Made by a program: the position numbers and the translations under genes. From an uncultured bacterium (lineage in GTDB: Bacteria; Omnitrophota; Gorgyraeia; Zapsychrales; Aceulaceae): a DNA stretch of 64,000 bases. The stretch spans positions 27,205-91,204 of the forward strand of contig CALGLP010000023.1 of assembly GCA_937930175.1 (NCBI GenBank), written 5' to 3'. Positions 1-45,000 of this stretch are shown here, piece by piece. Position 1 is the first letter of the stretch; each line of letters starts with the position of its first letter. The notes below the pieces were generated by a model that was given only the letters and a program-made list of their open reading frames with translations, was not told the DNA's origin and ran no database searches.

Positions 1-1
1 A

Positions 2-27000: not shown

Positions 27001-30000
27001 TCGCGCGTTTATTGCTTACAACGATGCCCACAGTGCCGAGGCAGGGATCAATGCGCTCAAGGTGATCTTTTTATATGAAAACTACCGTCGATCAGGTCAA
27101 TTGTGGAAGGGCAGGGAATTTCTGAATATCCTTTGTGTGCCAAATCCGGATAGGATCATTTTTGATTTTCAGAGTGTTGAACATAAGAAATCTTTGCGTC
27201 ATGACAAAGGACTTGTTGTTGACCGCGTGCTCAAGATCTTTAACGATTATTTTACACAGGTGTTGCCTTTTGAACAGCAAAAAGTGTCTCTTGAAAAGCA
27301 AAAAGCAGTCAAGGCCTATTTGCGCAAGCGAGGCGGGCTTGATTTCTTTGAAGCAGTCTTTCAGTTCCAAAAAGAAGAGACCGTGCCGGCAGAGCCCATT
27401 ACTTTTGTTATCCGTCGTATCGAGGCCGGTGGGGAGGTGTTCTGGTGGCCGACGATCGTGATCAACCTGGCTGCCTTGAAGACGCCTGATCAAGTTTTGG
27501 AAGAATCCGTCGGGCGCGCGATGTTTTTGTTCTTGCGTTTTATCGCGCGCAGTTACCGGCTGCCTTTTCCTGAAGAGGGCATCGAAGAAAAGATGCTTTT
27601 AAGCTTAAACCCTGTTGGTTGCATTAAGAGTATGATAGGTCCCTTTATAAAAAGAGTTTATATCCGTGATCCGAACACGAACGAGTCATGGCCGCTTAAT
27701 TTTACAGAAAGCATTTTGGATGGCTTGTTCTTGATGCTGGTTAACTGGACCACCATTGATCCTGATGATAACGCTTTTGAGAAGCTCTCTCATAATACAC
27801 GTCGGCTGGCCTCATTTTATGGCGATAAAAATATGCTTGTGCAGGCCTTGTACCGATTGATGACATTGTATGATCTTTGGGATGCCCCCCTTATCATTAA
27901 TCACAAACTTTTCCAGAAAGAACTGTATCGTCAGATCACGGATCTTGTTGCGATCGGCCATAAATACCTGAATCTGCCGTCCTTATTGACACAAGAACAT
28001 CAGAGAGATTATCAGCGTTATTGTTTTGATGAGGCCCAAAAGGTCTTAGCGCTTGCGTTTGCAAGTTTTCAAAGGATACAGCAGGGCGTATCATTTCAGG
28101 AAACAGCAACGCGACAAGAATTTTTGAAGGAGGCAGGCGATGCTGTTGTGGATCTGACGAAGCATTTTATCCGCACGGTTTCTCATCCTAAGGTTGAGAA
28201 TCCTGATCCGGATTGGATTAAGAAATCAAAAGAATGGAGCAGGGCTTTGTCACATTTTAAGCCCATGGGTTCCTCGGCGATCAGCCAAGGCCCTGCCGCG
28301 GCTTCGAGCGCGATTTTTTGCATGCTGTGTCCTGTTTTTCATTTGGGGGCTGTTATTGTTTTTGATTATGCGTTGATCCAATCTATCATTTTTTTCATTA
28401 TTTTTATCGTGGGTTTTACATTAACGATCAAGGCGTGGATCAAAGAGGTTCAGCAAAACAAGCGCGTCAAGGTATTAAGCGATCCTCAAGCTGAAGATAT
28501 CAGCGTTGCTGTTATCAATCGTCCGACATACGACATCCCTAACGCTTTGGATACAAGCACACTCCTTCGTCTTGGTGAGGTTATTTTGGCCAATGAACAG
28601 AACGACAAAATTACTGCGACGCTCATCATGGGAAAAGGCGATCGCGCCTTTGTGGCCGGCGGTGATTTGATTAAAGTTGGGCTAATGAAGACATTGAAGC
28701 AGGCTGCGGGATACGCAAGGCTCGGTCTTGAGACCATGAATATCATCGCGCGATCCTTAAAGCCTGTTGTGGTCCTTATTAATGGTCCTTGTTCCGGCGG
28801 GGGTTCCCATTTGGCCTTAGCCGGTGATCGCATTATCATGGCCCGGACATTTCAGAAACGCTTCAAGAATTTCCTCCAGCATCCGGAAGTGACCTTGAAT
28901 GTCATGCCGGCCTGGGGTGGCCTGATGCGTCTTTCGCAAAGGATCGGGCCCAAGAATGCCATATGCCTTTTTCTTGAGATGGACGAACAGGGTCGAACCC
29001 GACGGGTTTATTCCGAAGAGGCATTGGCCATGGGGCTTGTTGATGAAGTTGTTGAAGAGGGGGAACTTTTTTCAGCCGGCCTCAAGGCTGTGCGCAAGGG
29101 TATTGCTTTGTCGCAAAACGACCTGCGTTTTACCGATCAAAAAAAGTTTTTGGCACAGCAAGAAGAAGTGCAAGGGTTGTTGGGGGATGAGGAGGTAATA
29201 GACTGGATCGCGGCTCATGAGAAAAAGGGGCGCGGAGATCTTGCCCGCGGCGTTGTGAAGATTGTCCAGATCGGTTACGCGCAAGGGATTTCGGCAGCCG
29301 ATGAGGAAACGATCAAGTTATCCGCCTGGGCCTTTTTCTCTTCAGAAGCCAAGGCTGCGATTGTAGAGAAAGTCAAAGAGCTAAAAGATCGCCGGGAAAA
29401 AGGAGTTGAAAAGAAGGATAGGATTTCCTCATCGCTTAAAAATCAAAAAGAGTGCCAAGCCCTGATAGGCCAGATCGCTGATGTTTTACAGCTAGAAAAA
29501 TCTGATGAATATGATTTTGGTGAGAAACCCTTAGCTTTCGGGGGCAACGAATATATTTTTCAATCTTTATCCAGAAAGTCTGGAAAGCCTGTTGTTCGTC
29601 TGGGCTGGGGCCATAACGGTATGGGGAGATTTCAGCAGGACCAGTATTGGGGCTCTTGCTTGGTGCAAGTTGGCCAGCTTGTGTTCATGGACGCGCAGAT
29701 GTTTAAGGAGCTGAGTCAGTCCTTTCAAGAAGTCTTGAGAAATAACATTATTCTTTGCCGTGATCTGCATGACAGCACGATCGACAATAAAGGCTTACGG
29801 GATTACACCTCAGCCGTTATGGCCGCGATGTTTCAAGTTGATTTTGAGGGGAAATGGGTCATCGACTTTGGTAGCGGGGATGGAATGCTGTCATTGGCCG
29901 CGCAGGTGTTTGACCCCGCATTTATAACACTCTTGGATTGTGATGAGGATGCTCTTAGGCGGGCAGCCGTCCATTCCGGTCTAAATAGTCTCAAGAGATC

Positions 30001-33000
30001 TTTGGGCCCAACTTTTTTAAAGGCAGACTTGCGTAAACCTAAAGAAATGATGTCCATGCTGAAAGCCCAGAACGCTCATCTACCTATTATTATTTTAGCG
30101 AATTTGGGGGAATCAGAATATTGGTATGATGGGATAACGAATCAGACCGTGATCAAACTCCTTCCTGCTATTGAGCACTTCACGGGATGTCAGATTAGCG
30201 ATGTTGCCTTCGGCGGATATATTTCAGCTTATGATATTTATACGCAAGGTCTTCCTGAGAAGGCGATCCGAGATGATCAAGAGTTGCTTAAGCGTACAGC
30301 AGGTTTTACTGTTTGTCCTGAAGTCGGGTCAACTGATCTTACCTTTGGCCCTGGTGCCTGGCGCGCTAAGAGGAATGGTCTTTGTTCCTCTGTGATCATG
30401 GCCGTCGGTATCACAGGGCTCGCTGCGGCACTAGCCGGTTTTGGCGCAGAGCATCTGCACGAGCTTCTTGTCTTTGCTCAACAGATTAACGGGCCTGGCC
30501 TGAGTTTTATCGAAGGGCCGGGGTCGGCCCTGGCCCTGGCCGGGGCGCCCTTGCAGGAGTTTTTGGCCGCGGTCAACCCGACGATTTGCCGGTCCGCCTC
30601 GGAAACAGAGGCTGCGCAGACAAAAAAATGGCTCGATTCCATGGCTGCCGATGAACTTTTAACGGTCATTGGTCTTCAAAAAGGCAACGTTTTCAAAGAG
30701 CCACAAGATACCCTCAATAAGCTAAAAATCGTATCGATCCGAACCCCGCGACGTCGCCAACACAATCTTCCCTCTGTTGATGTTTTGAGCCAGCGCATTT
30801 CTTCGTCGGCAATAATAAAGATCCGCGATGCCAAGGATGTTCTAAATTTTGGCGGTAAAGCCGCAAACTCAAGCAAAGTAATAGAGCTAGGGAAGCGCGT
30901 CCCAGACGGTTTCGTGTTGCCTGATGAAATATTTGACGACTCTGTAATGCCAGAGATCGATGCCATCCTTCATGATTTGGCAGTAGATGTTGAAACGCCA
31001 GAGACCATTTTCGCGATATCCCAAAAAATTTCGGAACTTGTCGTTTCAAGAGACTTTCCTGCCCAGCTTCAAGACGATATCATACAAGCCTATCGCATCT
31101 TTAAGAACGGAAGAAAAGATTTAAGAGTCGCTGTCAGGACCAGTGGTATTAAGGAAGATTCTCGTGCTGCTGCATTCGCCGGACAGTTTAAAACCGTTTT
31201 GAATGTCGCCACAGAGGATGAGCTTATCATGGCCATAAAAGAATGCCGAGCTTCATTATGGAGCCCGCAGGCCATTATTTATAAATGGCACAACAGCATC
31301 GACACTAAAATGTGCATTATCGTCCAGGAGATGATACCTGCAGAAACATCGGGAGTTGCTATGAGTGCTGACCCCTTAACGGCCGACAAACACGAGACGG
31401 TTATTCATGCCGTGTGGGGATTATGTGAAGGGGCGGTCAACGGCTCGGTGCCGGCAGATGAGATACGTTATGACAACAAGGCAAGAAAAGTTAATCCGCA
31501 CAGGTCAACCAAGGCCTACAAAGACCGGATGATCGTAGTCTCGCCGACCTCGGGCGTAGAGGAAGTCTCCGTTCCCAAGAAAAACAGGAATAGATGGGCT
31601 ATTGATGGTGAGCAGCAAAAAGAGGTAGCGCAAACTGTTTTGGAGCTGCAAGACGCCTTTGATGGCCCTGTGGATATGGAGTGGAGCTATTACCAGAGAG
31701 AGCTTTTTATCCTTCAGGTCCGCCTCATAACGGCGATCAATGAGAAGACTGCCTTTCCCATTGAGTGGGATGGAGAAGAGGATAAAGCGTTGCAGTGGAC
31801 CTGGGCCCCGTTTATCTTTAACGGTAACGCCACGTTCCTGGAGATTTCAGGGACCAGGCATACCAATGACGGCAATCTGCGGGCCGGAAAAGCCCTTTCT
31901 TTGCCAACGGATTCTATATTCAAGGTTTTCAACGGTTTTACTTACAGGGCGTTATACAGCAATAAGAAAAGCAAGTATCTTGCTCCGTTCTTATGCAAAC
32001 GCCTTGTGCAGAATATGCTTAATTTTATTTTTCCTTATTATCTTGAATTGATCCGGATCTATCCGCGTTGCGTCGGTTCTTTAGGAAGAATTGGCAAGAT
32101 CTTTGATCTACTCTGGGAAAATCAGTGGGACAATCTTCTGCCGGAGGTCAAGCAGAGATTATCCAGACTAAAAGCGATATATGTCGGTGCCGGAGGGGCG
32201 CCTTACTCGGAACTCCATTCGAATGTTCAAGAAATAGCCGATACTGAGACCAAATTTTGGGAAATTAACCGCAGAAGCATAACTTTCATGCGCTACCTTA
32301 ACATTCACTATTTTAAGAAGGCGGATTACGCATTATTGGCCCAAGGATCCGTAACGGCTATCAGCGAGCTGAGGTCCAAGATTGTGGCAATAGCTGATAT
32401 TGTCAAACAAAACAGTGTTTTACATGACGAATTGGCGAGTCGTTTCAATAACGCGGTAGAGTTGAATACCCCCGTAGACATTTCGGGGCTGGACAAGATA
32501 AAGGGCGGTCCGGAATTCTTGATTATGCTGGATAATTTTCTTGATGAGCATGGGGGAGTATGCTCCAATTTCCTGATACCGACTTGGTCCGAAAACAATG
32601 TCGATGTCATAAGATGGATTTTAGCATCTTGCGATATGGAGGAGAGAGCAGGAGATATTAAGGCCAGGGAGCAAAGGATAAACGACTTATTGGCTGTGGT
32701 AGGTCCTATCCATCGACCTCGAGCTAGGTACGAGTTGGAGCTACCCATAAAGATCGAGAGAATTTTTAACGACCACAATTATTATAATAAACAACTGTTG
32801 GCAGGCGGAGAGCGGTTGTTTTTCCTTAAATTAGGCGAGAGGCTGACGGATGAATTTATCTTGGAGTCTTCCGAGCAGATATTTTTCCTTTCATACGAAG
32901 AGATCTTAGATTTGTTACGCAAGAAGTCAGAGGGAGGCGGCATCGAGATCAGCGCCATAAGGGCAAAAATCCGAGAGAGATTTGCTATATGGAATAGCCG

Positions 33001-36000
33001 CAATGCTATGAGGCCACAAATGCATATCGGCAGTATGCATAGTAGAAATCCCGAGAAAGTAACTGCGGTAATCGGAAGACCTAAAAAATCGATAGCTGGG
33101 TGGGCGTTGCTCAATGATTATGCCGTAGAAACTCAGGATGAGGATAGCAAGATATTAAAAGGCCGGCCTGCGTCCCCAGGGATCTATGTCGGCAAGGTCA
33201 AGGTTGTTCTTTATCCGCATGAAAGTAACAAGATCGCGAAAGGCGACGTTCTGGTCTGCAGAACAACTGATCCGACCTGGACAGCATTATTTTCTACCAT
33301 CGGGGCTGTGGTGGCCGATTTTGGCAATGGAGTAACCCAGCATACTGCGATTACTGCCCGGGAATTCAGGATACCTGCTGTCGTAAACACAGGCTCAGCC
33401 ACTAGGCTGTTAAAAGACGAACAGGTCGTTCGAGTTGATGGTTACGAGGGCACAATCACGATTATTTCCTCGCCGGTCCTTCCCGCCCTCTTAACCCTTG
33501 GCCTGATGGGCACGGCGCTGGCAAGTTTTTCGGGCGTATCTGGGGCGGGTGCCATGACCCAGGCGGGGTTGATGGATGCAGGGGTTTGGGCGTGGCTCGC
33601 GGGTTTTGGCACAGAGCATCTTCACGAGCTTCTTGCCTTTAGCCGGGACACCTTGGGGCCGCCGTTTATTTTACAAGCATTTTTCTTTCTTGTGGCCCCG
33701 TTAGACTTCCTGAAAGTTCTTTACTCTCCGTTCACCCAGATATTCCAACCAAAAAAATTCCTGACAGAAAAGCCTTTGGTAAAGGCGGATGAAAATTCCA
33801 GCGAAAACCCCAAAGAAGCCTCGCAGTCCGATTCCCTTTTAAGAGAGCAGCAGGCTCTTGTTTCTGTCGAGCTTGGTATTTATAAAACAAAGGTTATTTT
33901 TTTAGGGGTCAGCGATAAAGGACGCCCGTTAAAACAAAAATTAATGTTTCGCAGTATCTTGACCAAGGATTTGCTGGAAGATACGCGCGTATCCGCTGAA
34001 AAGTTAGGCCGCTTTATCCTCCGCACGACCAAGGAAGCCCGTACTCAAGCTCAGAAGAAAGGCCGGCGGCTAGTCGTTTTACCGGTCTTTAGCTTGGCCT
34101 ACAATGATCGGTTTGATGCCCACAGTGAACGCTTAAGGCAGGACCTTTCCCTCATGCTGGGCAGCCAAGGCATTGTTAAGCCTGATGCGGTGGCGGTGCT
34201 TTCTTACCATTTAAGAAAAATCCTTCCCACTCTGGGGAAGAAAATCAGGGGCCAAAATCTCATTTTTCTTAAGATGTCCGGAGGATTGGGCGGCGGCTCC
34301 ATTGTCAACGTGCACACCCATGATCTTTATGAGAATGAAATTGTCAACCGGCCGGTGGCTGATATTAAGCTTAAAGGGAAAAGCCATCGCATTAAAGTCG
34401 GTTCAAAGATATTCACGCTCATCTTTAAAGGCTCCCAGCCTTTTTCAGCGGGGAATATTATTTCGGGTAAAGGGATCGAAAGAATTTTAAAGAGTATTGA
34501 TTGTCAATTAATGAAAGAAGGGCGTCGGCCTGTCTTTCAGGGGCTGCTTGCCCGGTATCCCAAGAAAAAGGTCGATGGGTATTTGCTGGAGGGGATCATT
34601 TCCAATGAGGTTCATGCCTCGCGTGAGGTGGTGAGCCTTTCGCGAAAAATTCTGGTCTTGATCGGCGAATATTTGGGTCAGTTGATCGTACTTTTGCACA
34701 AAGGAGAATTTGAGTCGTACAAAAAGAAAGACCGTTGGAGCCAAAAGGACAAGACAGAGGTTTCTCGCACACTGAATTTTATCCTAGAGACAAAAGGCGC
34801 GTGCGGTAAGATCATTAAGCAGTCTGCCGCACGGTATTTGAAAAAACATCTTCCTCAAGAGCAGATCTGTCTTGTTCATTTTTTTGATGAGGGAGAATTG
34901 GCAGCCGCAAAAGGGGCAGCCTATTTTATTCCCAGACAGGCTCTCTATGAAGCCCTGATCAAGGCCAAGTATCTTTTGTCCACGGTGAACGCGGGCATCA
35001 ACCGCCAGCAGCAGGTGGCTGAGCATTTTAAGAGCCGGATCATGAACGGCAAGAATGTCGGGCTCAAGAAATGTATTCGTAAGCTAAAGATCGCTTTCAA
35101 ACAAATTTCCGGTGTTGAGATGTATCGTTACCGTCAAGATTGGATCGCGGTTTTAGGCCAGACGATTTTTGCCAAGGAGAGCAACTCACTGCGGGAGGCC
35201 TTGAGCGAAGTAAGTTGTCTTTTAGGGGAGACAAAGTTTAAGGTTAATGAACATGTCTTAGGGTATCTGACGAGATCTCATGATCTTACGGAGCAAGATG
35301 CCGGCAAGTTAAAACTGGTCTTAGATTCTTTAAAGCCCCGTAAGTTTAAGAATCGCCTTAGATCTGGCTATGTTTCTTTACGTTTGCTTGTCAAGCAGTT
35401 GAGTACTGTTAAAAATATCGCGGTTCTTTTGATCTTGATGGGGGCCACCCTGGAGATCTTTGATCAGCTGGTGAATGTCCTAGACGTGATCTCAACGTTT
35501 TCGGGATATTTCTTTAAGTGGATGGGTAACGGTGTGGTTGTGTTGACCCTTTTGGGTTTGATCGCGTATGCTCTTAAGCCATTGTTTCGTCGGATCGTTT
35601 TTAGAGAATACCAATCGTTTGTTAGCCAGGACACGGTTACAAAAGCCGCGCGCAGGATCCGGGTCGCCCCGCTTGACTTTACTCAGGCGGAAGATAAATC
35701 GAGCTATAGCTATTTGGTGTTTAATTCTGTGCCTTTTTTAAGGCAAATAAGAGATATTGTGCACGGCATTATCCGTTATAGCGGTTTTTCGCATGATGGT
35801 TTTTATGGCGTGGAGGATGTTGGTGAGCACGGCAGGACCAAAGGTGAATTCCTAAATAAGTTAGTCATCGATTATTTAGCAACGGGGGCCAGGCAAAGGC
35901 GATGGAGCCGATGGCTGATGGATAAGGTTTTCCGATTTTCGTTGAGCCCGGCGTATTCTTATCGCAAGGGCCAGCAGATCTTAAGCCAGCTATTTGCGAT

Positions 36001-39000
36001 TCTTAAGGAAAAAGGATATACGCAGCCGGCTATTGACCAGATGATCAAGGAAGCGTATTTCCATGGAAAGACACCGGCATTGATCAAGGCCATGGAAGGG
36101 GCTTTTGAGCCGGGGATCTTTTCGTTCTTGGAGAACCGTCTTAACCTTGGGCAAATGGATCAGACCTCTTTTCTTCTTGAAAAGGGGGTTGCTTTAAGAC
36201 AGAGACAGAAAAAAGAGAATAGCGTGTTGTTAACTAGCCTTGTTTCTGAGTTAGGCTCGGAGAAGGCTAGCAGCAGTTGTGATCTAGAGGGGCATGAGCA
36301 TGGCCATCACCACGACCACGCGCATCATCACGCAGTCAATATGCAGACGTTGAAAAAGGTTTGTGCGATTGTCGCCGGCTATATGGTGATCGAATTATTT
36401 GGAGGAATGTTTTTCCGTTCCTTGGCGCTGACCGCGGATGCCGGGCATATGTTCATGGATGCCATGGGGCTTTTGTCGGTGTTGCTCGCGCAGTGGTCCA
36501 CGCAGCGTTGGGATATGCATAGAAAATATAATGGTGTTTCTTGGGCGGAGCTTCTGGCGACGGGTATTAATACATTGATGATCCTGATTATGGCAGGGTA
36601 CGTTTTTGTTGAGTCCTTTGAGCGCTTCGCTCAGCCTGCTGCTGTTGCGGTGTTGCCGGTGTCGGTGATCGCGCTTGTCGGGTTGGGGGTCAATATTATA
36701 AGCGAGAGGATCGTGCATCCACAAAAGGATAACGGGATGGGTATGAAAAGCGTATATGTGCATATTTTTGGTGATTTGCTGATCTCTGTGGGTGTTCTGG
36801 TCAGTATGCTTTTGATCAATATCACCGGAAACAATGCTTGGGATCTTGGGATCAGTTGTGTCATTACGCTTTGGCTTATTTTTAATTCAGGCCGCTTGGC
36901 TGTGGGGATGGTTAAGGCGGTCAAAGGCAAGCATGACGATGAACATCATTGGTATGATGAAGCTTCCGGATTAGGCGATGATCACTCGCATTATCATGCG
37001 AAGCACGAAAAGGCTTGCTCGTTGATCCGCGAGACTAATCTTAGGGCATATGATCTACCTGGCGCGGTCCAAGCCAAGGCCTTGATTGAGCCCACGACCG
37101 TCGACCTTTATGAAAAGACTGAGAGGCCTCTTAAAGCACCGATCGGATTCGAAGTCGAGTTCAATTTGTGCTCGTTAAAGCGTTTTGGCAGCAAAAAATA
37201 CCGCACCCGCATCCGCTCCTTGCCTTGCAAGCCTTATTGGGTGGCGACCGGCATCTTTGAGGTTAGCCCAAAACCTTCTTGGAGTTATCAGACTCAAGTG
37301 GCTATGGCGCAGGCGTTGCTGAATAAACTGGGGATTTTGGTCGAGGATATTATTTCGGTTCAGGTCAATCTGGGCATGCCTTCTAAGATCTGGAAAATAG
37401 TAAGACAGCTTGAGTTCCTTGAGGAAATGCAGAAGATCATGATGGTAACGGCTTTAGGCTTTGTTTCGGCTGAGCGCATTTTAAATAAGAAAACCAGCAA
37501 GGTCGTCGAGCTTCGTCCCGGCCGATGGTTTTTTAGCGAGGCCATGAGCCTTGAGGGTCAACGCTATGTGCGTTTTGAATGCGGATTTGCGGATTGGCTG
37601 ATGATCAATGAGATCGCAGGCATTTTGCAGCATCTGTTCCCGGCCTTGACCGTTTATTGCCGCAGTGATCTTGAGGCTTTGACCGATGATCAGCAGGAGC
37701 TTGCCGGGATCTGGCAGAAAAGGATCCGGGAGCCTTTGCAGTCCCTGGTTGATGAGGTTTTTTTCGCGGCGGATAAAGATTTTCTGATCGACAATGCCTT
37801 GACCTATGTTGCACTGCTGAAGCTTCGGGATGGGAATGAATATTTTCGGCAGGCCAGTCAGCAGATCTTGCGCGATGTATTTAAGGCCTATCAGCAATGG
37901 CGGGAGCGGGCCAAAGATTTAGGAGTATTGGAAAAGACGATTTCGTCTTGTATCTTTGAAATCCCAGTGGCGTCTTCATTTGTCGCTTGGACACCGGAGG
38001 CCTTTGAGATCTATGGCAATAAGGGTGGGCGCAGTTTTGTAGCATTAGCCTTTGCAGGTCAATTTAATGATAAGACTATAGGAAAAAGAGCTCTTTCAAT
38101 CGGCACAGGCCGTTACAATTATCCGGAGCTGGAATTGGCTCTTCGCGGTTGGGATGTTACGGTGGTGAGCCCGCTCACAAAAGAAGAACTATGGAAAACC
38201 CGCTTAGATCCTTGCAATGAGACATATCAGGGCATCCGGCCTGGCGCACTAGGGGCGGTCATTCGACAATCTGGGGGCCGCTATAGGTATATTAATTCAT
38301 GCTTTGAACTTGAAACTCCAAGCCAATATTTTCAAAATGAAAAATTTGATTTAGTGATCATCGCTAATTTCTTAGATACTGGAGGGGGTTCTGAATTTAT
38401 TAGACATGCTTTTAAATCTTTTGTTTCTATTTTAAGCGATGAAGGCCAGATGGTCATTGTTAGCAATCGAATTTGCTCCAGGAGCGAAAATTTTATCAAG
38501 AAACTTAGAAGAAATAATGTTGAGCTTAAGCGGTATCAAGGTCTTCCGTATTATGATCAACTTTTGCACCAAGTGGTTTATGCTGATTACGACGGTAATT
38601 GTTACTGGGATGTTATCTCCAGAGTTCAGTATTTTTATTTTCGGAAATGTCTTTCTTCTGTCATTTTGGTGGTAGATGATGAGGTCAATAATCTTGACTT
38701 AACAGCAATGATTGCAGAGTCTTTGGGCTATGGCGTGGTGAAGGCCGGTAGCGTCGATGCAGCGCTTGGGATCTTGCGCCGACAGAAGATCGATGCGGTT
38801 GTTTCGGATGTCAATATGCCCGGCTTAAGCGGTATTGATTTGGCACGTATTGTTGCCGAAAAGTTTCCTTTGGTTCCCGTCATCTTGATGACAGGGTGGG
38901 TGGCCGCGGACCAAAAAGAAGAGATCGCGCAATTGAAGTTAAAACTGATTTATAAGCCGATTGACCCCGATGATCTTCAAAAAGCGATTGAGAAGGTATT

Positions 39001-42000
39001 TTTAAGAAAGTCATCAAAAACCTCTTCGCCGGCGGTTGACCCTGAAGGACTAACGATATTTTTATTGGGGAGAGAGGGGGTCTCTTCATCAATCGCCTGG
39101 TCTCTAGAGACGATTGTCGGAGGAGATTTAAATGCTCGTTATTTAAAACGTATCTGCGAAATTATTAACACTCATGATGATGAGGAAGAACCAAGGGACC
39201 ATGGGCGAGAAAAGGTGGCGTTCTTGATTGGGCCGGCCGCTGATTTTTCGACGGCATGGTTAGCGACTCAAGCTTTGAAGTTCATTTTTATTGAGAAATT
39301 GCCATTGCATGTCACGTTGGACACTGTCCTAAAGAGAAATATCCAGGAGTTGATGGAACATGCTTTTATGTTGAGCATGATGTCAGCGCTCGGATCAGGA
39401 GATTTGCCTAATTTCGATCTGTTTCTTTATATGAATGAAAAGAAAATTATTGATTTGTATTGTATGGAAAAAAGTTTTCAGGGCTTCATCACTGATGAGT
39501 TCTTGGGGATCTGTGGAGGCGTGTGGCCATTTCTTAAGAAGGAAATCGAGATTGCCACGCGCGATTCTTCTGATCATATCAGCCCTGCGGCAAGAGAGGA
39601 TGATCCCAGGGTTTTTGATTTGAATTTTAGACTAAACAACAGGGAACACTCCTTGGTTTTTATGGAAAAGACAGATGGATTGGACGTCAGCAATTATGCA
39701 AATTATCTAAGGCTCTTTGGTGGCGTTGATTTTATTATCATTAAGGCCGGCGATGTTTATTTAGAGAATAAGAAATTTTTGCTGCCTGGACAAATCGTTG
39801 AGGAGTTCTTAAGGCCCGGAGGATTTGTCATTCTCGACAGCAAGAGGGCTCTTCAGCAGGGCCAAGCGGTTCGCGATTTACTGATACCTGTGGAAGATGA
39901 CGTACTTTTGAAACTGGAAAGGCAAGGGGCTGTTTTTGGTTACAATGGTCCTCTTTATAATGAATCAAAGAGCGGGGCATATATTTTTAAGAAGAAAGGC
40001 TCCATATCTTCGGCGGTAGCTTCTTCAGTGCTCGATATTCCTTCGGGCCGGGGAACAAGCTTTAAGATTTTATTGCCAGTTGCCAAAGAAAGCCAACAGA
40101 AAGAATCTTTTTGTCTGACGGGTGTCAAAGAGGGCAGGGCAACCAAGTCTAAAAACTCCGGATCACCATTAACTTTGTCTACGATCTTCGTTCTAGGCCT
40201 GGTCAGTTTAATGGGGGCAAGCTTGGCGGGATTGTCTGAGCCGGGCGCGGTTGCTCATGTGGGATTAATGGACGCAGGCGCTTTGCAGTGGTTGGAGGGT
40301 TTTTGGTCAGAGCATGTGGCGGCGGTGTTGTCGGCGGTATTTCCTAATGGGCCGGGGGAAGGGGTTTTGGTTTATGGCGCCTTTGCTTCTTCTCACCTTT
40401 TTGTTCTTGCCCTTCTTTCTCTTCTCATCGGATCTTTAATTTTTATATTTTTATTCCATCGCAAAAATCACGACCAGATTGCTTACCCTGAGATCCAGGG
40501 CATGGATTTTATGTCGGTTGTACGTTATTTTTTGCCTCAGGGCGATCTGACCCTCACTGATGTCGGAGCCGGGAATAACCGTTTTATTGAATCAGTAAGA
40601 GAAGATCTAGATAATGCTTTTTCGCTTTTGGTTGGCTTTGATAACAAGACCCCGGGCTATAAAAAGTATTGCCCCCACTCCCAAGAAGTTATTTCCCTTT
40701 CTCTTCAAGAGGCAGCTGGAGATCCAGACTATCAAGAATATTCTAACGTTGTTACCGTAAATGCGCCAGACGTGCATTTTTACGATGATCTTGTTCCTTG
40801 CGTGATGTGCTTGCTCAAACGGCAAGGCGTTGGCTTGATTTTTGTGAAGTTGGCTCCCAAGGATGGTTGTTATATCAAGAATCTGATGCATCAGATGCGG
40901 ATTTATGGGGCACAGCCGATTTTGCTCAAAAACCTTCAAGGTTATCCCAAGACTTTTTATACTGATGACAGAACTCCGGTCGTTTTGGGTGTAGTTCACT
41001 GGAGGCAGAAAGGATCTTGTTCGGCGAGCGTCACAGAGGATATGACTGTTGCTAACGCAGACGGCCTTTCTGCGCAAAAGAATTGTTTTTTTAAAACGAG
41101 ATGGCTGATCGCGTCTATCACTTGTACAAAAGTTCTATTGATGACTTTTTCTTCATTGATCAAAAAAAATAAAGTTCTTTTGCTCAGTGGTTTATTATTC
41201 TTTTTTCCTAACGCGGCGCTGGCTTTTGTTGGGACCGGCCCTGAGGATTCCTTGGGAAGCCTGCCTGAGGCCAGTTATTGGCTAGTAGAATGGATGTTGA
41301 GCCAACCGCTCTGGCTGGCGCTGGGCAAGATCTTGACGCCCGTTCTCGTGATCGCGCTTTTTTTAGCCAGGGCCAGGCGATGGAGGGTCTCGATCCCTGA
41401 GCCGGTTCAAGAGGCGTTGGGGATTCAGCCGAAATCTCGCGCGTCCGCGTCATCCAGCAGGCACGGATTGTTTTTCTCATCCTTGGGACCTTCCAACGCC
41501 TTTGATGATCAGGCTTACGAGACGCTTGTTAACAAGGGTTTTATCGTTCAAACCATTGCTCAGAGACGGTTTCTTTTTATTCTTCGCGTTTTTGACAAAA
41601 CATCTCTTGTACGCCGGCATCCGCAGAAGGTCTTTATGATCGATATAAGAGATATTGATGACCGAAAGCGTGTTGCACGTTTTGATTTTGTTTTTGATCT
41701 TGCTGCTCAAAGAGCTGTTGCAGATACGGCTTATGTCGAGTATCGCTTTTTAAAAGGATACGAGGAGTCGTTAGATCATCTTCATAGCGAGGGATATCGC
41801 GTTGCCCTTAAGGTTCTTGATAAGGCGCGCGATGTTTTCTTTTCGACTCGAGGATTAAGCTATCCTGTGAGCATCGATATTGCTGACGATTATCGCAGTT
41901 CAAAGAAAAAAGGCAATTATCAGTTTTTCACAATTCTTTTTAAAATATTCTTTTCTTTGGCTCATCAGCAGGGCATACAATCCTTTAAAGCGGTGCCGCT

Positions 42001-45000
42001 CAGAAAATCTCTTTTTGATCGGATCTTCGAGTACATCATTCTTCCTAAAAAGATAAGCCTTTTTCAATTTTATCAGAGAGCGATCCCTTTGCCGTATCAG
42101 AAGAAGTGGTCTTGGGATTTATACCCGTATTTAATTTTTGATCTTTCGGATATGCCTTCTGCGCTTGTCTTTTCTTTAAGTCCTGCCGGCACCAAGACTG
42201 AGGCGTTAACAACGTCTTCGGTGATACACCCAAAGAGCGATTCTGTCTATGCTCTGGAGGTCAGGGATTTCGACGGCGCGCCTGAGGCCCGGAACAAAGC
42301 TGCTAGGCTGCGAAACGCTCTTCTGAAGGCTGATATCCCTTTTGTTCAGAAGAAAAGCTTTGAAGATCTGCCCTGGAAAGCAATCACCAAGTGTATTGGA
42401 GAGCATGAAGGCCCTGTGATGACCTGGATCATTTTCGGGGGACTGTTTCGGGCTTGTTTACGAAAAACGATCAAAAAGATTATAGATCTTTGCTCTAAGC
42501 TATCGGGTCAGACGACGAGGATCGTTTTGCCTTTGTTTGCTATGAATCACCTTTATCGTTATGAATTGACGAGCGAGTCAAGCGAATTTCGTGCTTATAT
42601 GCAAGTTAGTGAAATTCCTCGCTTGATCGAGGCGCATTCCAAGGAAGGCTTGATCACAACAGGGAAAGAACCTTGGCTTAATGCGGATGGATATTATTTT
42701 ATGTTTGACTATGACGCAACCAAACAGCAGGTCGTGATCCGTTGTAATGGACAGATTTTACGTGTTTTAGGAGACGAGGCTTCAACCAAGCATACTGTGA
42801 TTCTTGATTTTGTGATGACATTGGAGGGTTTTAATAAAGTTATGGAACAAACCCAGATTACGGCTGTGAATGTCGATGGTAAAGAGGTAGGCAAGTTAGC
42901 GCAAGAGCAAGAATTCGGATCCCCATTAGTACTTCCAACCATTTTAGTCTTAGGCCTCATCGTCTCTGCGCTGGCAAGTTTGCTGGGCTTCTCGGAGCCC
43001 GGCGCGGTTGCTCACGCGGGATTGGGGGATGCGGGGGTTTTGCAGGGGTTGGCGGGTTTTTGGTCAGAGAATGTGGCGGTAATGTTGTCAGCAATATTTA
43101 CCAATGGGCCGGGGGATTTGGTAGCGATGAGCTTAGGGCTTTCTTCGGTTTCGCCTAGCCTTTTATTATTTAAGGAAGACAATGCTATTGGACCAGGCCA
43201 TTTAGTTAATGAGCACGCGCCTTTGGAATTAACAGACATGATTCAGCCAGGGTTCTTGACTCCTGGACTGGTCGTTGTTCATAGCGATGATATTCTCCAG
43301 GAAGTACTCTATATATACAGCGAATATAATTTTGTGGGGGCTGCAGGAACGCTTGCGGTGTATCTAAAGCGTTCACGCTGGATCAATCTTTATCCGCGGA
43401 TATTCGCCTATCTTGATAGAGTTCTTCCTGAATCTTATGAAAGGATTGTTTTAGTTAGATCCTTTGAAGACCCAGAAAGGGTAAAGCACGAGATCCTTCA
43501 TGATCTTGTTGAGTTATCTTCACAAGTAGACTCCCGTCCTTTTGAAAGTCTTATTGAAGCTTTCAGTAAGATTATGGAAGAGGATAAAAATTTCAATGAA
43601 AAATTTCATGAATTCCTGTGTCCTAATGGAGCATGTGACACAGGGATGAACGTGGAGCATTTTATTTGTTATTTCTTTTCTGGCCAAAGGTCTCACGATT
43701 GCTCCGAGGAATACCTTTCCTTTACTCGTACTTATCATTATGAAGAACTTTATGATTATTTTTTGCATCAAATGCCGCGCGAAATTATTGATTTATTTGA
43801 TCAGCTTGGTTTAGTCTGGCCGGATGGTAGTGATGTTGATCAAAATGCTGGGGACACGCAAGAAACATTTAGCATATCTAGTCCCCGGATTGCTCATCGT
43901 ACGGGTGTGTGGGAGCTTGAAGAGGCGGGCAAGCCCAATGATCCCAGGGAAGATGTTTCTTCGCCGATCTCACGGGAAGACTTCATCGATAACTATCTGA
44001 CATCGCTCGGCAAGCATTGGGCAGACTTAGCGCCGAAGATGAAGCCCCTTCTACTTAAAAGGTTGATAAGTCTAGAAGCCGGGGCTGATTATTATGTGCA
44101 AGACAAAGAGGCTTTTGCCGCGCTTGCCGACCTCGGCATAGCGAGTGCCCATATGTTCATGCTGTTGTTGCGCACTAGGGCGCGTCCTGACGTCGAAAAA
44201 GAGGTCCTTCTTGAGAAAAACATCATCGAGGGTAACTATGAGCCTGTATTTCAATATTTCGTCAATTTATATAAATATCCCAATGAAAGCGACACCTTTT
44301 CTAGGTATCAATCTGCTGTTGTCAGATATGCGATCCTCCTTGAGGGCGATACGGTCGTCAAAGCCCCGCGTGATATTGTTGCCTACATTAAGGACATTGT
44401 CATTAACGAGTTTATAGGCTCAAGGGAAGAAATCTATTGTGGATCAGCTTACGGCCAGTGTGACCTTTATCCTCGGGCTGCTGTTAATGAGGCGCAGCAA
44501 TATTTTGAACGACATTTTCTTGAGTATTATGGAGTGGCTTTTCCGGTATTGCTCGCCGATGTCGTTGTTTTCACGAAAGATGTAAATAAATGTTTTTCGT
44601 CTCAATCAAAGATCGGCGTGGCTTATTCCTCGCACGACTCCTCTAAAATATATCAAAAGGTTGTTCCTTCTCTCATAAGGAAGATCTTCCACGAAGCCCT
44701 GCATTTGGCTTTGCCGTACAGCTTTAATGATTTTTACGCCTTGAGAATTTTTGATGAGGGTCATATAAGATATGAAACGGACGAATTTACCTGGTTCGTC
44801 GATCCGCAGAGTTGCCATGTTGACGATGGCATAGCCGACGATATATATTTTCCTCATCGCCGCTTATTCGTATCTCTGCAGGAAATCGTCGGCAGAAACA
44901 ACATCATTAAGATGAGAATGGAAGGAAAGATCGGCCCGTTGGTCGCCGCCTTGGGCGCTTACGGGAATGAATTGATGATGCTGTTTGAGTATGTTCAGGC

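What the first reader, a model, noticed from the sequence alone, without database searches (positions are those of the whole stretch)
36285..37015. Complete CDF-family metal-efflux membrane domain with His-rich flanks inside the giant ORF
TM2 (LTADAGHMFMD) and TM5 (HIFGDLLISVGV) carry the HxxxD/HxxxD tetrahedral site-A residues typical of Zn/Co/Cd CDF transporters (ZitB/CzcD-like). They are flanked by HEHGHHHDHAHHH and DDHSHYHAKHEK. A functional transporter core fused into a >17,000-aa protein is highly unusual. It suggests the giant protein is anchored in the membrane through a real six-helix bundle and might couple metal sensing or transport to its other modules.
Basis: partly seen in the sequence, partly recalled or inferred. 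Interest (0 to 1): 0.7.

Follow-up and report, generated by a model that had tools for sequence, protein, structure and literature searches.

The report
Zinc-exporter membrane module inside giant protein
A real six-helix zinc-exporter (CDF) membrane domain, without the usual cytoplasmic tail domain, sits in the middle of a giant Omnitrophota gene of more than 17,600 codons, and similar embedded copies occur in at least four other long proteins, so it is a recurring building block and not a one-off.

Summary
Window 36290-37012 (+), inside an ORF open from base 2 to the stop at 52867, encodes a CDF transmembrane domain: Pfam PF01545 at 85 bits, TIGR01297 at 115 bits (above its cutoff). AlphaFold gives six confident helices, and the 45 best PDB fold matches are all CDF transporters. 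The HxxxD/HxxxD zinc site aligns to ZnT8 and YiiP site A. The two flanks are the only His-rich clusters in the whole ORF.

The interpretation needs correcting in three ways.
1. Only the membrane domain is present. The cytoplasmic C-terminal domain (CTD) is absent, and the basic residue matching YiiP Lys77 (charge interlock) is replaced.
2. The fusion is not unique. Exhaustive HMMER and a metagenome scan found embedded, CTD-less, HD-HD CDFs in four other long ORFs, one annotated as Omnitrophota. Three tested form a clade with 95% NJ bootstrap.
3. Neighbouring modules differ in every case, so coupling to the nearby response regulator is unsupported. About 26 other hydrophobic segments also anchor the protein.

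Most likely function: a Zn2+/H+ antiporter module with both ends in the cytoplasm, so it does not disturb the topology of its neighbours.

By-product: the relatives' modules are bracketed by an enriched DGG tripeptide, and the window ORF is enriched in [AIVL]SS[SP]. These may be junction or cleavage marks.

The parts
2..52867 (+). Giant ORF. It is open from the first in-frame codon of the window to the stop at 52865-52867, so it is at least 17,621 codons and its 5' end lies outside the window. Residue numbers in this report count from base 101.
   Evidence: Pfam domains along it: Sigma70 r2/r4, ARMT1-like, ECH, methyltransferase, PPDK_N, PEP-utilizers, Cation_efflux, Response_reg. The 3' end is 100% identical in three independent assemblies.
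36266..36277 (+). ASSS (aa 12056-12059), a copy of the enriched [AIVL]SS[SP] junction-like motif. It lies at the point where the N-terminus of a stand-alone CDF would be.
   Evidence: The motif was defined after seeing the data; 20 observed against 2.6 expected in the ORF.
36290..36331 (+). N-terminal His-rich tail GHEHGHHHDHAHHH (aa 12064-12077), predicted to be cytoplasmic.
   Evidence: Stand-alone homologs carry the same kind of His-rich N-terminus, so it is probably inherited.
36341..36412 (+). TM1 (aa 12081-12104), containing the family-invariant E12098.
   Evidence: AF2 helix 42-65; conservation tables.
36422..36508 (+). TM2 (aa 12108-12136) with the SLALTADAGHMFMD motif. Site-A residues are H12116 (nt 36446-36448) and D12120 (nt 36458-36460).
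36542..36628 (+). TM3 (aa 12148-12176). W12148 replaces the Arg/Lys that is 99% conserved in stand-alone CDFs and corresponds to YiiP Lys77 (charge interlock). E12150 is kept.
   Evidence: PMC6465983 for the Lys77-Asp207 interlock.
36650..36724 (+). TM4 (aa 12184-12208) with the conserved GLGVN motif.
36737..36826 (+). TM5 (aa 12213-12242) with VHIFGD. Site-A residues are H12221 (nt 36761-36763) and D12225 (nt 36773-36775).
36836..36925 (+). TM6 (aa 12246-12275), with the conserved D12248.
36929..37012 (+). C-terminal His-rich segment KHDDEHHWYDEASGLGDDHSHYHAKHEK (aa 12277-12304). It occupies the place of the missing CTD. It is modelled with low confidence and does not match the CTD profile.

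Best explanation
Window 36290-37012 encodes the complete transmembrane domain of a Zn-type (HD-HD) cation diffusion facilitator, related to stand-alone ZitB/CzcD-like proteins.

Origin (inferred): a whole stand-alone CDF, including its His-rich N-terminus, was captured into an Omnitrophota giant multi-module gene and lost its cytoplasmic C-terminal domain. This embedded, CTD-less lineage persists in several long proteins.

Proposed mechanism:
1. The six helices insert with both ends in the cytoplasm, so the module can sit between cytoplasmic modules without changing their topology.
2. The TM1-2-4-5 bundle rocks against TM3-TM6 and exchanges H+ for Zn2+ (possibly also Co2+ or Cd2+). The metal is bound tetrahedrally by H12116, D12120, H12221 and D12225 and is moved out of the cytoplasm.
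3. In the window copy, the two cytoplasmic His-rich tails act as metal-collecting or buffering arms. This is what has been proposed for the metal-chelating N-terminal tails of CTD-lacking CDFs, and here they would replace CTD-based sensing.

Shown: domain identity, fold, site-A residues, absence of the CTD, recurrence in other long ORFs.
Inferred: transport activity, substrate, role of the His tails, and whether the module works within the intact giant protein or after being cut out.
For: Identity and fold:
- PF01545 at 85 bits and TIGR01297 above its cutoff.
- AF2 gives six helices with pLDDT above 90, and only CDF structures match the fold.

Site A:
- The residues align to ZnT8 and YiiP site A.
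- An HD-HD site is associated with Zn specificity (PMC6465983).

Constraint:
- The window copy keeps 34 of 48 columns that are at least 85% conserved in 140 stand-alone CDFs, against a 28% match to consensus at other columns. The kept positions include E12098, SLALxxDAxHMxxD, GLxxN, HxxxD, S12229 and D12248.
- The four other embedded copies keep 37-40 of 48, including all four site-A residues, at only 38-42% identity to the window copy.

Recurrence and common origin:
- The top two of 4,876 hits in an exhaustive search are embedded CDFs.
- The top three of 58 metagenome loci are embedded; the rest are stand-alone genes or fragments cut by contig ends.
- The alignment is ungapped from TM1 to TM6.
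- The NJ clade has 190/200 bootstrap support.

Coherent loss of CTD-linked features:
- A CTD HMM hits every complete stand-alone homolog (E 1e-21 to 1e-36) and none of the embedded copies.
- The residue equivalent to YiiP Lys77 is lost in all five.

Topology:
- K+R counts are 12 on the predicted inside against 2 outside.
- The neighbouring modules are cytoplasmic-type, and the predicted TM count between them is even.

Other:
- Codon usage is typical of the host gene.
- CTD-lacking CDFs with metal-chelating N-tails are a recognised class (PMC8341793, PMC6465983).
Against: - There is no functional data of any kind.
- The function of natural CTD-lacking CDFs is itself described as unclear (PMC6465983).
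- CDFs are thought to work as dimers stabilised by the CTD and the charge interlock. Both are missing here, and a module in the middle of a 17,600-aa chain may not be able to dimerise.
- The window copy is the most divergent of the clade. Its 34 of 48 conserved columns equals the minimum seen among stand-alone proteins, and it has non-conservative changes: P12137W, R12148W, N12214G, G12228I, W12244N.
- The other embedded copies lack His-rich tails, so these tails are not essential to the clade.
- The CDF region of this ORF was not seen in a second, independent assembly; only the 3' end was.
- NJ clustering of fast-evolving sequences could be long-branch attraction.
Confidence: 0.6

Rival explanations
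1. Polyprotein release. The giant ORF is a string of concatenated whole proteins that a protease cuts at short junction motifs (DGG in the relatives, possibly [AIVL]SS[SP] here). The CDF would then act as an ordinary small (about 220-250 aa) CTD-less transporter, free to dimerise. This agrees with the best explanation on what the module does and differs on the form in which it acts.
For: - In P0128, P0129, L015 and L017, DGG is 6-16 standard deviations over-represented. It is encoded by varying Gly codons and spaced at domain-sized intervals.
- DGG brackets the CDF on both sides in all four.
- None of the 37 DGG in L017 and P0129 lies inside a Pfam envelope, and several domains start 7-17 aa after a DGG.
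- In the window ORF, [AIVL]SS[SP] occurs 20 times against 2.6 expected. It lies next to the borders of PPDK_N, PEP-utilizers and the CDF.
- West-Roberts et al. 2023 proposed cleavage by C39/S8 peptidase domains but state that the cleavage points are unknown.
Against: - No protease domain was found in the sequences examined.
- There is no proteomic evidence.
- The window motif was defined after seeing the data and is weaker than DGG. No copy of it follows the CDF closely; the next is at aa 12624.
- A conserved junction tripeptide could equally be a flexible linker or a docking motif.
Confidence: 0.25
2. Metal sensor. The module binds metal but no longer transports it. It would pass metal occupancy on to neighbouring signalling modules, such as the response-regulator receiver 580 aa downstream.
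For: - The site-A ligands are intact, and the His-rich tails are unique to this copy.
- A canonical receiver domain (DD, D, T and K residues all present) lies at aa 12855-12964.
- A weak HATPase_c match lies further downstream.
- The CTD and the interlock residue are lost.
Against: - The neighbours of the embedded CDF differ in every carrier: HEAT/GNAT in L017, CheR/UPF0146 in L015, DUF7689 and methyltransferases in P0129, DUF7689/PPDK_N in P0128.
- Outside the CDF, nothing in the window ORF is homologous to P0128 or P0129.
- Residues needed for the transport cycle beyond the ligands (E12098, GLxxN, D12248, R12175) are also conserved.
Confidence: 0.08
3. Decayed relic or plain membrane anchor. 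The six-helix bundle has lost transport activity and is kept only because it threads the chain through the membrane.
For: - The CTD, the interlock Arg and several other conserved residues are lost.
- The window copy is the most divergent member.
- Giant Omnitrophota proteins evolve fast and are poorly conserved (PMC10066038).
Against: - All four metal ligands and most family-invariant polar residues within the membrane survive in five lineages that are only 38-74% identical to each other. Buried His and Asp residues would not be kept in a mere anchor.
- The protein already has many simple hydrophobic segments that could anchor it.
Confidence: 0.1
4. Artefact. A mis-assembly or sequencing error fused a normal CDF gene into a neighbouring long ORF.
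Against: - An open frame of 17,621 codons cannot arise by chance.
- No start or stop codon and no CTD accompany the CDF.
- Codon usage matches the host ORF.
- The same architecture occurs in four unrelated contigs from ENA, NCBI and JGI.
- The 3' end of this ORF is identical in three assemblies.
Confidence: 0.02

Closest known systems
Stand-alone bacterial Zn-CDFs of the ZitB/CzcD type (TIGR01297; 'cobalt-zinc-cadmium efflux system protein')
   Same: - 33-39% identity over the whole membrane domain.
- His-rich N-terminus.
- SLALxADAGHMxxD and HxxGD motifs (HD-HD site A).
- GLxVN motif and the TM6 Asp.
   Different: - These are proteins of about 300 aa with a ZT_dimer CTD (PF16916) and a conserved GYxRxE Arg.
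- The window module has no CTD, has W in place of that Arg, scores 97.9 bits against the 408-bit ZitB equivalog cutoff, and lies about 12,000 residues into a giant ORF.
Embedded CDF modules in other long proteins: P0128 (NCBI MFA6384433.1, Ca. Omnitrophota, partial), P0129 (ENA ERZ25039480, 4,815 aa), L015, L016/L017 (metagenome contigs of 165-702 kb)
   Same: - CTD-less, with an HD-HD site.
- Same loop lengths (ungapped alignment).
- Shared loss of the interlock Arg, of the loop Asn and of the post-TM6 Pro.
- Located between cytoplasmic-type modules.
- NJ clade for the window copy, P0128 and P0129.
   Different: - Only 38-42% identical to the window copy, while 61-74% identical to each other.
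- They lack the His-rich tails.
- They are bracketed by DGG, which is absent from the window ORF.
- Their neighbouring modules are all different.
CTD-lacking CDFs (the class noted by Kolaj-Robin et al. 2015, as cited in PMC6465983 and PMC8341793)
   Same: No cytoplasmic C-terminal domain, and a cytoplasmic N-terminal tail rich in His/Asp/Glu that is proposed to chelate metal.
   Different: Those are small independent proteins. No sequences of that class were compared here, so homology with them was not tested. Their function is also reported as unclear.
Omnitrophota giant multi-enzyme membrane proteins (West-Roberts et al. 2023; Nielsen & Lui 2026 'class 1'; Seymour et al. 2023)
   Same: - An ORF of more than 10,000 aa with many unrelated Pfam domains (PPDK_N, methyltransferase, HATPase_c, response regulator).
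- Numerous TM segments.
- Poor conservation between species.
   Different: The papers mention a 'transport / membrane architecture' module only in general terms. Neither main text mentions cation efflux or CDF, and the one supplementary file held for the 2026 preprint has no occurrence. No supplementary files are held for the 2023 preprint.
YiiP and ZnT8 (solved CDF structures)
   Same: Same six-helix fold (TM-score about 0.5-0.6 over about 200 columns) and equivalent site A.
   Different: - YiiP has a DD-HD site.
- Both have CTD dimerisation, and YiiP has the Lys77-Asp207 interlock. These are absent here.

Membership tests
Cation diffusion facilitator family (Pfam PF01545 / TIGR01297) | Sequence match to the family's membrane-domain profile above the curated threshold | tested here: met
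   PF01545: 85.4 bits against 26.6. TIGR01297: 114.8 bits against 82.35.
Cation diffusion facilitator family (Pfam PF01545 / TIGR01297) | Six transmembrane helices with the CDF fold | tested here: met
   Six hydropathy peaks. Six AF2 helices, mostly pLDDT above 90. The 45 best Foldseek PDB hits are all CDFs.
Cation diffusion facilitator family (Pfam PF01545 / TIGR01297) | Tetrahedral site A: two ligands on TM2 (xxxD spacing) and two on TM5 | tested here: met
   H12116/D12120 and H12221/D12225 align to ZnT8 H106/D110/H220/D224 and to YiiP D45/D49/H153/D157.
Cation diffusion facilitator family (Pfam PF01545 / TIGR01297) | Cytoplasmic C-terminal domain (ZT_dimer, PF16916) with metal site C | tested here: not met
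   No PF16916 hit. The TIGR01297 match ends at profile position 190 of 285. A CTD HMM built from homologs finds nothing in the ORF, yet hits every complete stand-alone control at E 1e-21 to 1e-36. This feature is common but not universal in the family (PMC6465983).
Cation diffusion facilitator family (Pfam PF01545 / TIGR01297) | Basic residue of the TM3 GYxRxE motif (YiiP Lys77, charge interlock) | tested here: not met
   Trp at 12148; Ala or Ser in the other embedded copies; Arg in 99% of 140 stand-alone homologs.
Cation diffusion facilitator family (Pfam PF01545 / TIGR01297) | Homodimeric metal/H+ antiport | not testable with these tools
   Needs expression and transport assays.
ZitB equivalog (NCBIfam NF002923) | Full-length score above the equivalog cutoff | tested here: not met
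   97.9 bits against 408; profile positions 5-203 of 313 only.
CTD-lacking CDFs (Kolaj-Robin 2015 class) | No CTD, plus a metal-chelating cytoplasmic N-terminal tail | tested here: met
   CTD absent. N-tail GHEHGHHHDHAHHH. Class description taken from PMC8341793.
CTD-lacking CDFs (Kolaj-Robin 2015 class) | Independent small protein; sequence relationship to described members | not tested
   The module here is internal to a giant ORF. No reference sequences of that class were available for comparison.
Omnitrophota giant multi-domain membrane proteins | ORF of more than 10,000 aa, many distinct Pfam domains, many TM segments, Omnitrophota genome | tested here: met
   At least 17,621 codons. About 11 distinct domain types. 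31 hydropathy peaks. The adjacent U32 peptidase is 77-78% identical to copies in Omnitrophota MAGs that also have a long ORF upstream. The taxon is inferred from neighbours, not from a marker phylogeny.

The most novel reading that the evidence does not exclude
The giant ORFs that carry embedded CDFs are punctuated polyproteins. Whole ancestral proteins, including a CTD-less zinc exporter, would have been concatenated head to tail and separated by a minimal junction mark selected at the peptide level: D-G-G in P0128, P0129, L015 and L017, and possibly [AIVL]-S-S-[SP] in the window ORF. A protease would recognise these marks and release proteins of normal size. That would supply the missing cleavage-point information for Omnitrophota giant proteins, and it would mean the CDF works as a free, dimerisable, CTD-less transporter.
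Probability: 0.2. Interest if true: 0.85.

Novelty: new variant of a known kind. Interest (0 to 1): 0.5.

Why it matters
For transporter biology:
- A lineage of CDFs has lived without the C-terminal domain and without the charge-interlock residue while keeping the zinc site.
- This is a natural experiment on whether those elements are needed for transport.

For Omnitrophota biology:
- At least some modules of the giant proteins are ordinary housekeeping membrane functions, not adhesion or cell-wall attack.
- A six-helix module with both ends in the cytoplasm can be inserted without disturbing the topology of its neighbours.

The junction motifs seen alongside (DGG, and SS[S/P]) give a concrete, testable handle on the open question of whether giant proteins act whole or are cut into pieces.

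Tried and rejected
1. Cryptic CTD after TM6. MAFFT placed the C-terminal His-rich stretch against the CTD 'HDLHVW' motif, and AF2 drew two short strands there. However, pLDDT is 43-47, and a CTD HMM with strong positive controls scores nothing. Rejected as an alignment artefact caused by His richness.

2. Recent horizontal insertion. GC3 is 0.553 against 0.466 +/- 0.055 for the ORF, and codon log-likelihood is within about 1.3 SD of the ORF mean. There is no compositional signal.

3. DGG as the footprint of internal Shine-Dalgarno (GGAGG) sites. The Gly codons vary freely (GGC most common), so the constraint is on the peptide.

4. Long internal repeats in the window ORF. Self-BLASTP at E<1e-6 found none. 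Only a short linker element of about 55 aa recurs.

5. Finding orthologous giants through the downstream flank.
- The search for homologous proteins and genome contigs returned nothing.
- The word-indexed protein search did not return P0128 or P0129 even when they were part of the query alignment.
- So its lack of long-protein hits is not evidence of absence.
- The exhaustive HMMER search and the metagenome scan were what found the embedded relatives.

6. Synteny route. Omnitrophota relatives have a long ORF upstream of the same U32 peptidase gene, but it shares only three short patches (36-67% identity) with the window ORF, and the contigs end before any CDF region.

7. Literature. No paper in the library mentions cation efflux or CDF domains in giant proteins, or a DGG motif in Omnitrophota.
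Full report
**1. The observation**

The window holds one enormous open frame. The ORF listing reports 101..52867, but there is no stop upstream of base 101. The frame is open from base 2, so the gene starts outside the window and is at least 17,621 codons long. Residue numbers below count from base 101.

In that frame the reported interval reads ...EKASSSCDLE GHEHGHHHDHAHHH AVNMQTLKK ... SLALTADAGHMFMD ... VYVHIFGDLLISVGV ... KHDDEHHWYDEASGLGDDHSHYHAKHEK.

- Pfam Cation_efflux matches aa 12090-12268 with E=6e-24 and 85 bits.
- TIGR01297 (CDF) scores 114.8 bits against a cutoff of 82.35.
- Hydropathy shows six peaks.
- The two His-rich stretches are the only places in the 17,588 residues with at least 7 His in 30 aa, so their position at the two ends of the CDF is not chance.

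**2. Structure and key residues**

An AlphaFold2 model built with 40 homologs has six long helices, mostly with pLDDT above 90. Its 45 best Foldseek matches in the PDB are all CDF transporters: ZnT3, ZnT10, ZnT7, ZnT1, ZnT8, ZnT4 and YiiP. They align over about 200 columns at about 3 A rmsd. The next hits are unrelated and insignificant.

- phmmer against PDB sequences aligns H12116/D12120 with ZnT8 H106/D110, and H12221/D12225 with H220/D224.
- hhalign against E. coli YiiP aligns the same residues with D45/D49 and H153/D157. Its numbering reproduces the published site A, site B and Lys77 positions.
- An HD-HD site is the zinc-type configuration (PMC6465983).
- K+R counts in the loops are 12 on the predicted cytoplasmic side and 2 outside. 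This fits the usual CDF topology with both ends in the cytoplasm.

**3. What is missing**

Both profile matches stop at the end of TM6: TIGR01297 covers positions 3-190 of 285, and ZitB NF002923 covers 5-203 of 313 at 97.9 bits against a 408-bit cutoff.

I built an HMM of the C-terminal domain from the stand-alone homologs. It finds nothing anywhere in the giant ORF. The same HMM detects the CTD in every complete stand-alone CDF recovered from metagenomes, at E 1e-21 to 1e-36.

The apparent alignment of the C-terminal His-rich stretch with the CTD 'HDLHVW' motif, and the two short strands AF2 draws there, lie in a region with pLDDT of 43-47. I reject them as artefacts.

The module is therefore a complete membrane domain and not a complete CDF. 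Also, the Arg of the TM3 'GYxRxE' motif, present in 99% of 140 stand-alone homologs, is Trp here. By hhalign it corresponds to YiiP Lys77. Lys77 forms the (Lys77-Asp207)2 charge interlock that stabilises the dimer (PMC6465983).

**4. Where it comes from**

- The neighbouring genes are ordinary bacterial genes: U32 peptidase, ChlI-like ATPase, DUF212, YkuD, AccA, RlmN.
- They occur, as identical proteins, on other assemblies including NCBI MAG GCA_036722365.1.
- The U32 peptidase is 77-78% identical to copies in Candidatus Omnitrophota MAGs, which also have a long open frame just upstream.
- Giant ORFs with many TM helices and dozens of unrelated Pfam domains are well documented in this phylum (PMC10066038; West-Roberts et al. 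2023; Nielsen & Lui 2026).
- The window ORF fits the 'multi-enzyme' class. It carries Sigma70 r2/r4, ARMT1-like, enoyl-CoA hydratase, methyltransferase, PPDK_N, PEP-utilizers, the CDF, a response-regulator receiver and a weak HATPase_c, plus about 26 hydrophobic segments outside the CDF.
- The relatives' giant ORFs share only three short patches with this one, in line with the reported poor conservation.

**5. Is the fusion unique?**

The word-indexed protein search returned only stand-alone CDFs of about 300 aa and nothing for the downstream flank. That tool also failed to return P0128 and P0129 when they were part of the query, so its negatives for long proteins carry no weight.

The exhaustive HMMER search of 1.84 billion representatives gave a different picture. 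The two best hits of 4,876 are CDF domains inside long proteins:
- P0128: 1,795 aa, a fragment spanning a whole 5.4-kb contig. NCBI MFA6384433.1, already named 'cation diffusion facilitator family transporter, partial [Candidatus Omnitrophota...]'.
- P0129: 4,815 aa, from an ENA metagenome.

A scan of JGI metagenomes with an alignment of the three embedded domains returned 58 loci. The three best (L015, and L016/L017, on contigs of 165-702 kb) have the CDF inside open frames of at least 2,478 to 3,871 aa that run off the fetched locus. The rest are stand-alone genes of 300-470 aa or fragments cut by contig ends.

All embedded copies share these features:
- They lack the CTD.
- They keep HxxxD on both TM2 and TM5.
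- They keep 37-40 of the 48 family-conserved columns.
- They have lost the interlock Arg, the loop Asn (N12214) and the post-TM6 Pro.

The window copy, P0128 and P0129 align without a single gap from TM1 to TM6. In a neighbour-joining tree with 71 stand-alone CDFs they form a clade in 190 of 200 bootstraps.

The window copy is the outlier of the group. It is 38-42% identical to the others, which are 61-74% identical among themselves. It keeps 34 of 48 conserved columns, which equals the lowest value seen among stand-alone proteins.

**6. Context of the module**

The neighbours of the CDF differ in each carrier:
- Window ORF: an unknown ~250-aa domain and then a receiver domain downstream.
- L017: HEAT upstream, GNAT downstream.
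- L015: CheR upstream, UPF0146 downstream.
- P0129: DUF7689 and methyltransferases.
- P0128: DUF7689 and PPDK_N.

Outside the CDF, nothing in the window ORF is homologous to P0128 or P0129. This argues against a dedicated functional partnership such as metal sensing wired to the receiver.

In each case the flanking modules are cytoplasmic-type soluble domains, and the CDF is the only cluster of hydrophobic segments in its neighbourhood. In the window ORF, four predicted TM segments lie between the PEP-utilizers domain and the CDF, and none lie between the CDF and the receiver. The parity is therefore consistent with all of these domains being cytoplasmic. The hydropathy method is crude, so I treat this as consistency, not proof.

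**7. Most likely mechanism**

I read the module as a working Zn2+(Co2+/Cd2+)/H+ antiporter unit of the CTD-less kind.

- The argument for function is the retention, over deep divergence in five lineages, of buried charged and polar residues that have no use in a mere anchor: E12098, H12116, D12120, N12157, R12175, N12198, H12221, D12225, S12229 and D12248.
- The joint loss of the CTD and its interlock partner looks like coherent remodelling, not random decay.
- The N-terminal His tail resembles those of stand-alone homologs and is probably inherited.
- CTD-lacking CDFs have been proposed to use such tails for metal chelation (PMC8341793).
- The C-terminal His-rich stretch is specific to this copy and may replace the metal-binding role of the CTD.

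None of this has been tested experimentally, and the function of natural CTD-lacking CDFs is itself described as unclear (PMC6465983). My confidence is about 0.97 that this is a CDF membrane domain, and about 0.6 for the full statement including transport.

**8. A by-product that may matter more**

In the four relatives the tripeptide D-G-G occurs 7, 22, 8 and 15 times, against 0.8-1.7 expected (z = 6 to 16).
- All Gly codons are used, so selection acts on the peptide and not on a nucleotide motif such as a Shine-Dalgarno site.
- There is no extended consensus, and spacing is domain-sized with a median near 225 aa.
- DGG brackets the CDF on both sides in all four: P0128 919/1144, P0129 3392/3608, L015 1930/2219, L017 1995/2214.
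- None of the 37 DGG in L017 and P0129 lies inside a Pfam envelope, and several domains begin 7-17 residues after one.

The window ORF has no DGG at all. Instead, [AIVL]SS[SP] occurs 20 times against 2.6 expected (z = 11). I defined that motif after seeing the data. The related ORF in L007 gives 4 against 0.5. Copies lie 16 aa before PPDK_N, 5 aa after PEP-utilizers, and 5 aa before the CDF's His tail.

These look like junction marks between concatenated whole proteins. West-Roberts et al. suggested proteolytic processing of giant proteins but note that cleavage points are unknown. If the marks are protease sites, the CDF would be released as a small free transporter. I give that reading about 0.2-0.25.

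**9. Comparison with what is known, and verdict**

The domain is a member of the CDF family by profile, fold and site A. It is not a ZitB equivalog, and it lacks the CTD and the interlock residue.

Its closest functional analogue is the recognised but poorly understood class of CTD-lacking CDFs. Its genomic setting is the known phenomenon of Omnitrophota giant multi-domain proteins, for which a 'transport / membrane' module group has been mentioned only in general terms. No paper in the searchable library reports CDF domains in giant proteins.

Noticed in passing
window 1-101: The giant ORF has no in-frame stop upstream of base 101. It runs off the 5' end of the window, so the TTG 'start' at 101 given by the ORF listing is not the real start, and the protein is longer than 17,621 aa.
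   Followed up: yes
L014:10001-24448 (P0129), L015:1-7434, L017:1-11613, P0128: The tripeptide DGG is 6-16 SD over-represented and spaced at domain-sized intervals. It is encoded by varying Gly codons, never falls inside a Pfam envelope, and brackets every recognisable module including the CDF. It may be a junction or cleavage mark of polyprotein-like giant ORFs.
   Followed up: partly
window ORF, e.g. 30800-30811 (ISSS before PPDK_N), 33467-33478 (ISSP after PEP-utilizers), 36266-36277 (ASSS before the CDF): [AIVL]SS[SP] occurs 20 times against 2.6 expected in the window ORF (z about 11, motif chosen after seeing the data), and 4 against 0.5 in the related ORF of L007. Several copies sit at domain borders. 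DGG is completely absent here.
   Followed up: partly
window 3065-3235, 33470-33640, 42923-43093, 45227-45397: Four copies of a conserved element of about 55 aa: SSP[VI]LPxxLxLGL[IM]G..A[LV]AS...(hydrophobic helix)...AGLxDAGVWxWLAGFW. One copy starts directly after the PEP-utilizers domain. It looks like a recurring membrane-insertion or linker element. No other internal repeats were found by self-BLASTP.
   Followed up: partly
window 37058-37828 and about 11399-12160 (aa 12320-12576 and 3767-4020): A ~250-aa domain with no Pfam match occurs twice in the ORF, once directly after the CDF. Both copies match two repeats (25-31% identity) in a 4,635-aa hypothetical protein of Elusimicrobia MAGs (P0144).
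   Followed up: partly
window 38663-38992: A response-regulator receiver domain with all canonical residues (DD, phospho-acceptor D, T, K) is embedded in the giant ORF about 580 aa downstream of the CDF. A weak HATPase_c match lies at aa ~16236-16297.
   Followed up: no
window about 10757-11188 (aa 3553-3696): Sigma-70 region 2 and region 4 matches lie inside the giant membrane-protein ORF. This is an odd place for a sigma-factor-like module.
   Followed up: no
L006:2-3952, L007:1-9897 compared with window 40900-52867: Omnitrophota relatives with the same downstream synteny (U32 peptidase 77-78% identical) also carry a giant ORF. It shares only three short patches (36-67% identity) with the window ORF, and its end aligns about 1,060 aa before the window ORF's C-terminus. 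This points to extreme mosaicism and turnover.
   Followed up: partly
tool behaviour: The word-indexed protein search did not return P0128 or P0129, although both are in its collection and were part of the query alignment. It appears not to see long proteins, so its negative results for giant-protein homologs should not be trusted.
   Followed up: yes
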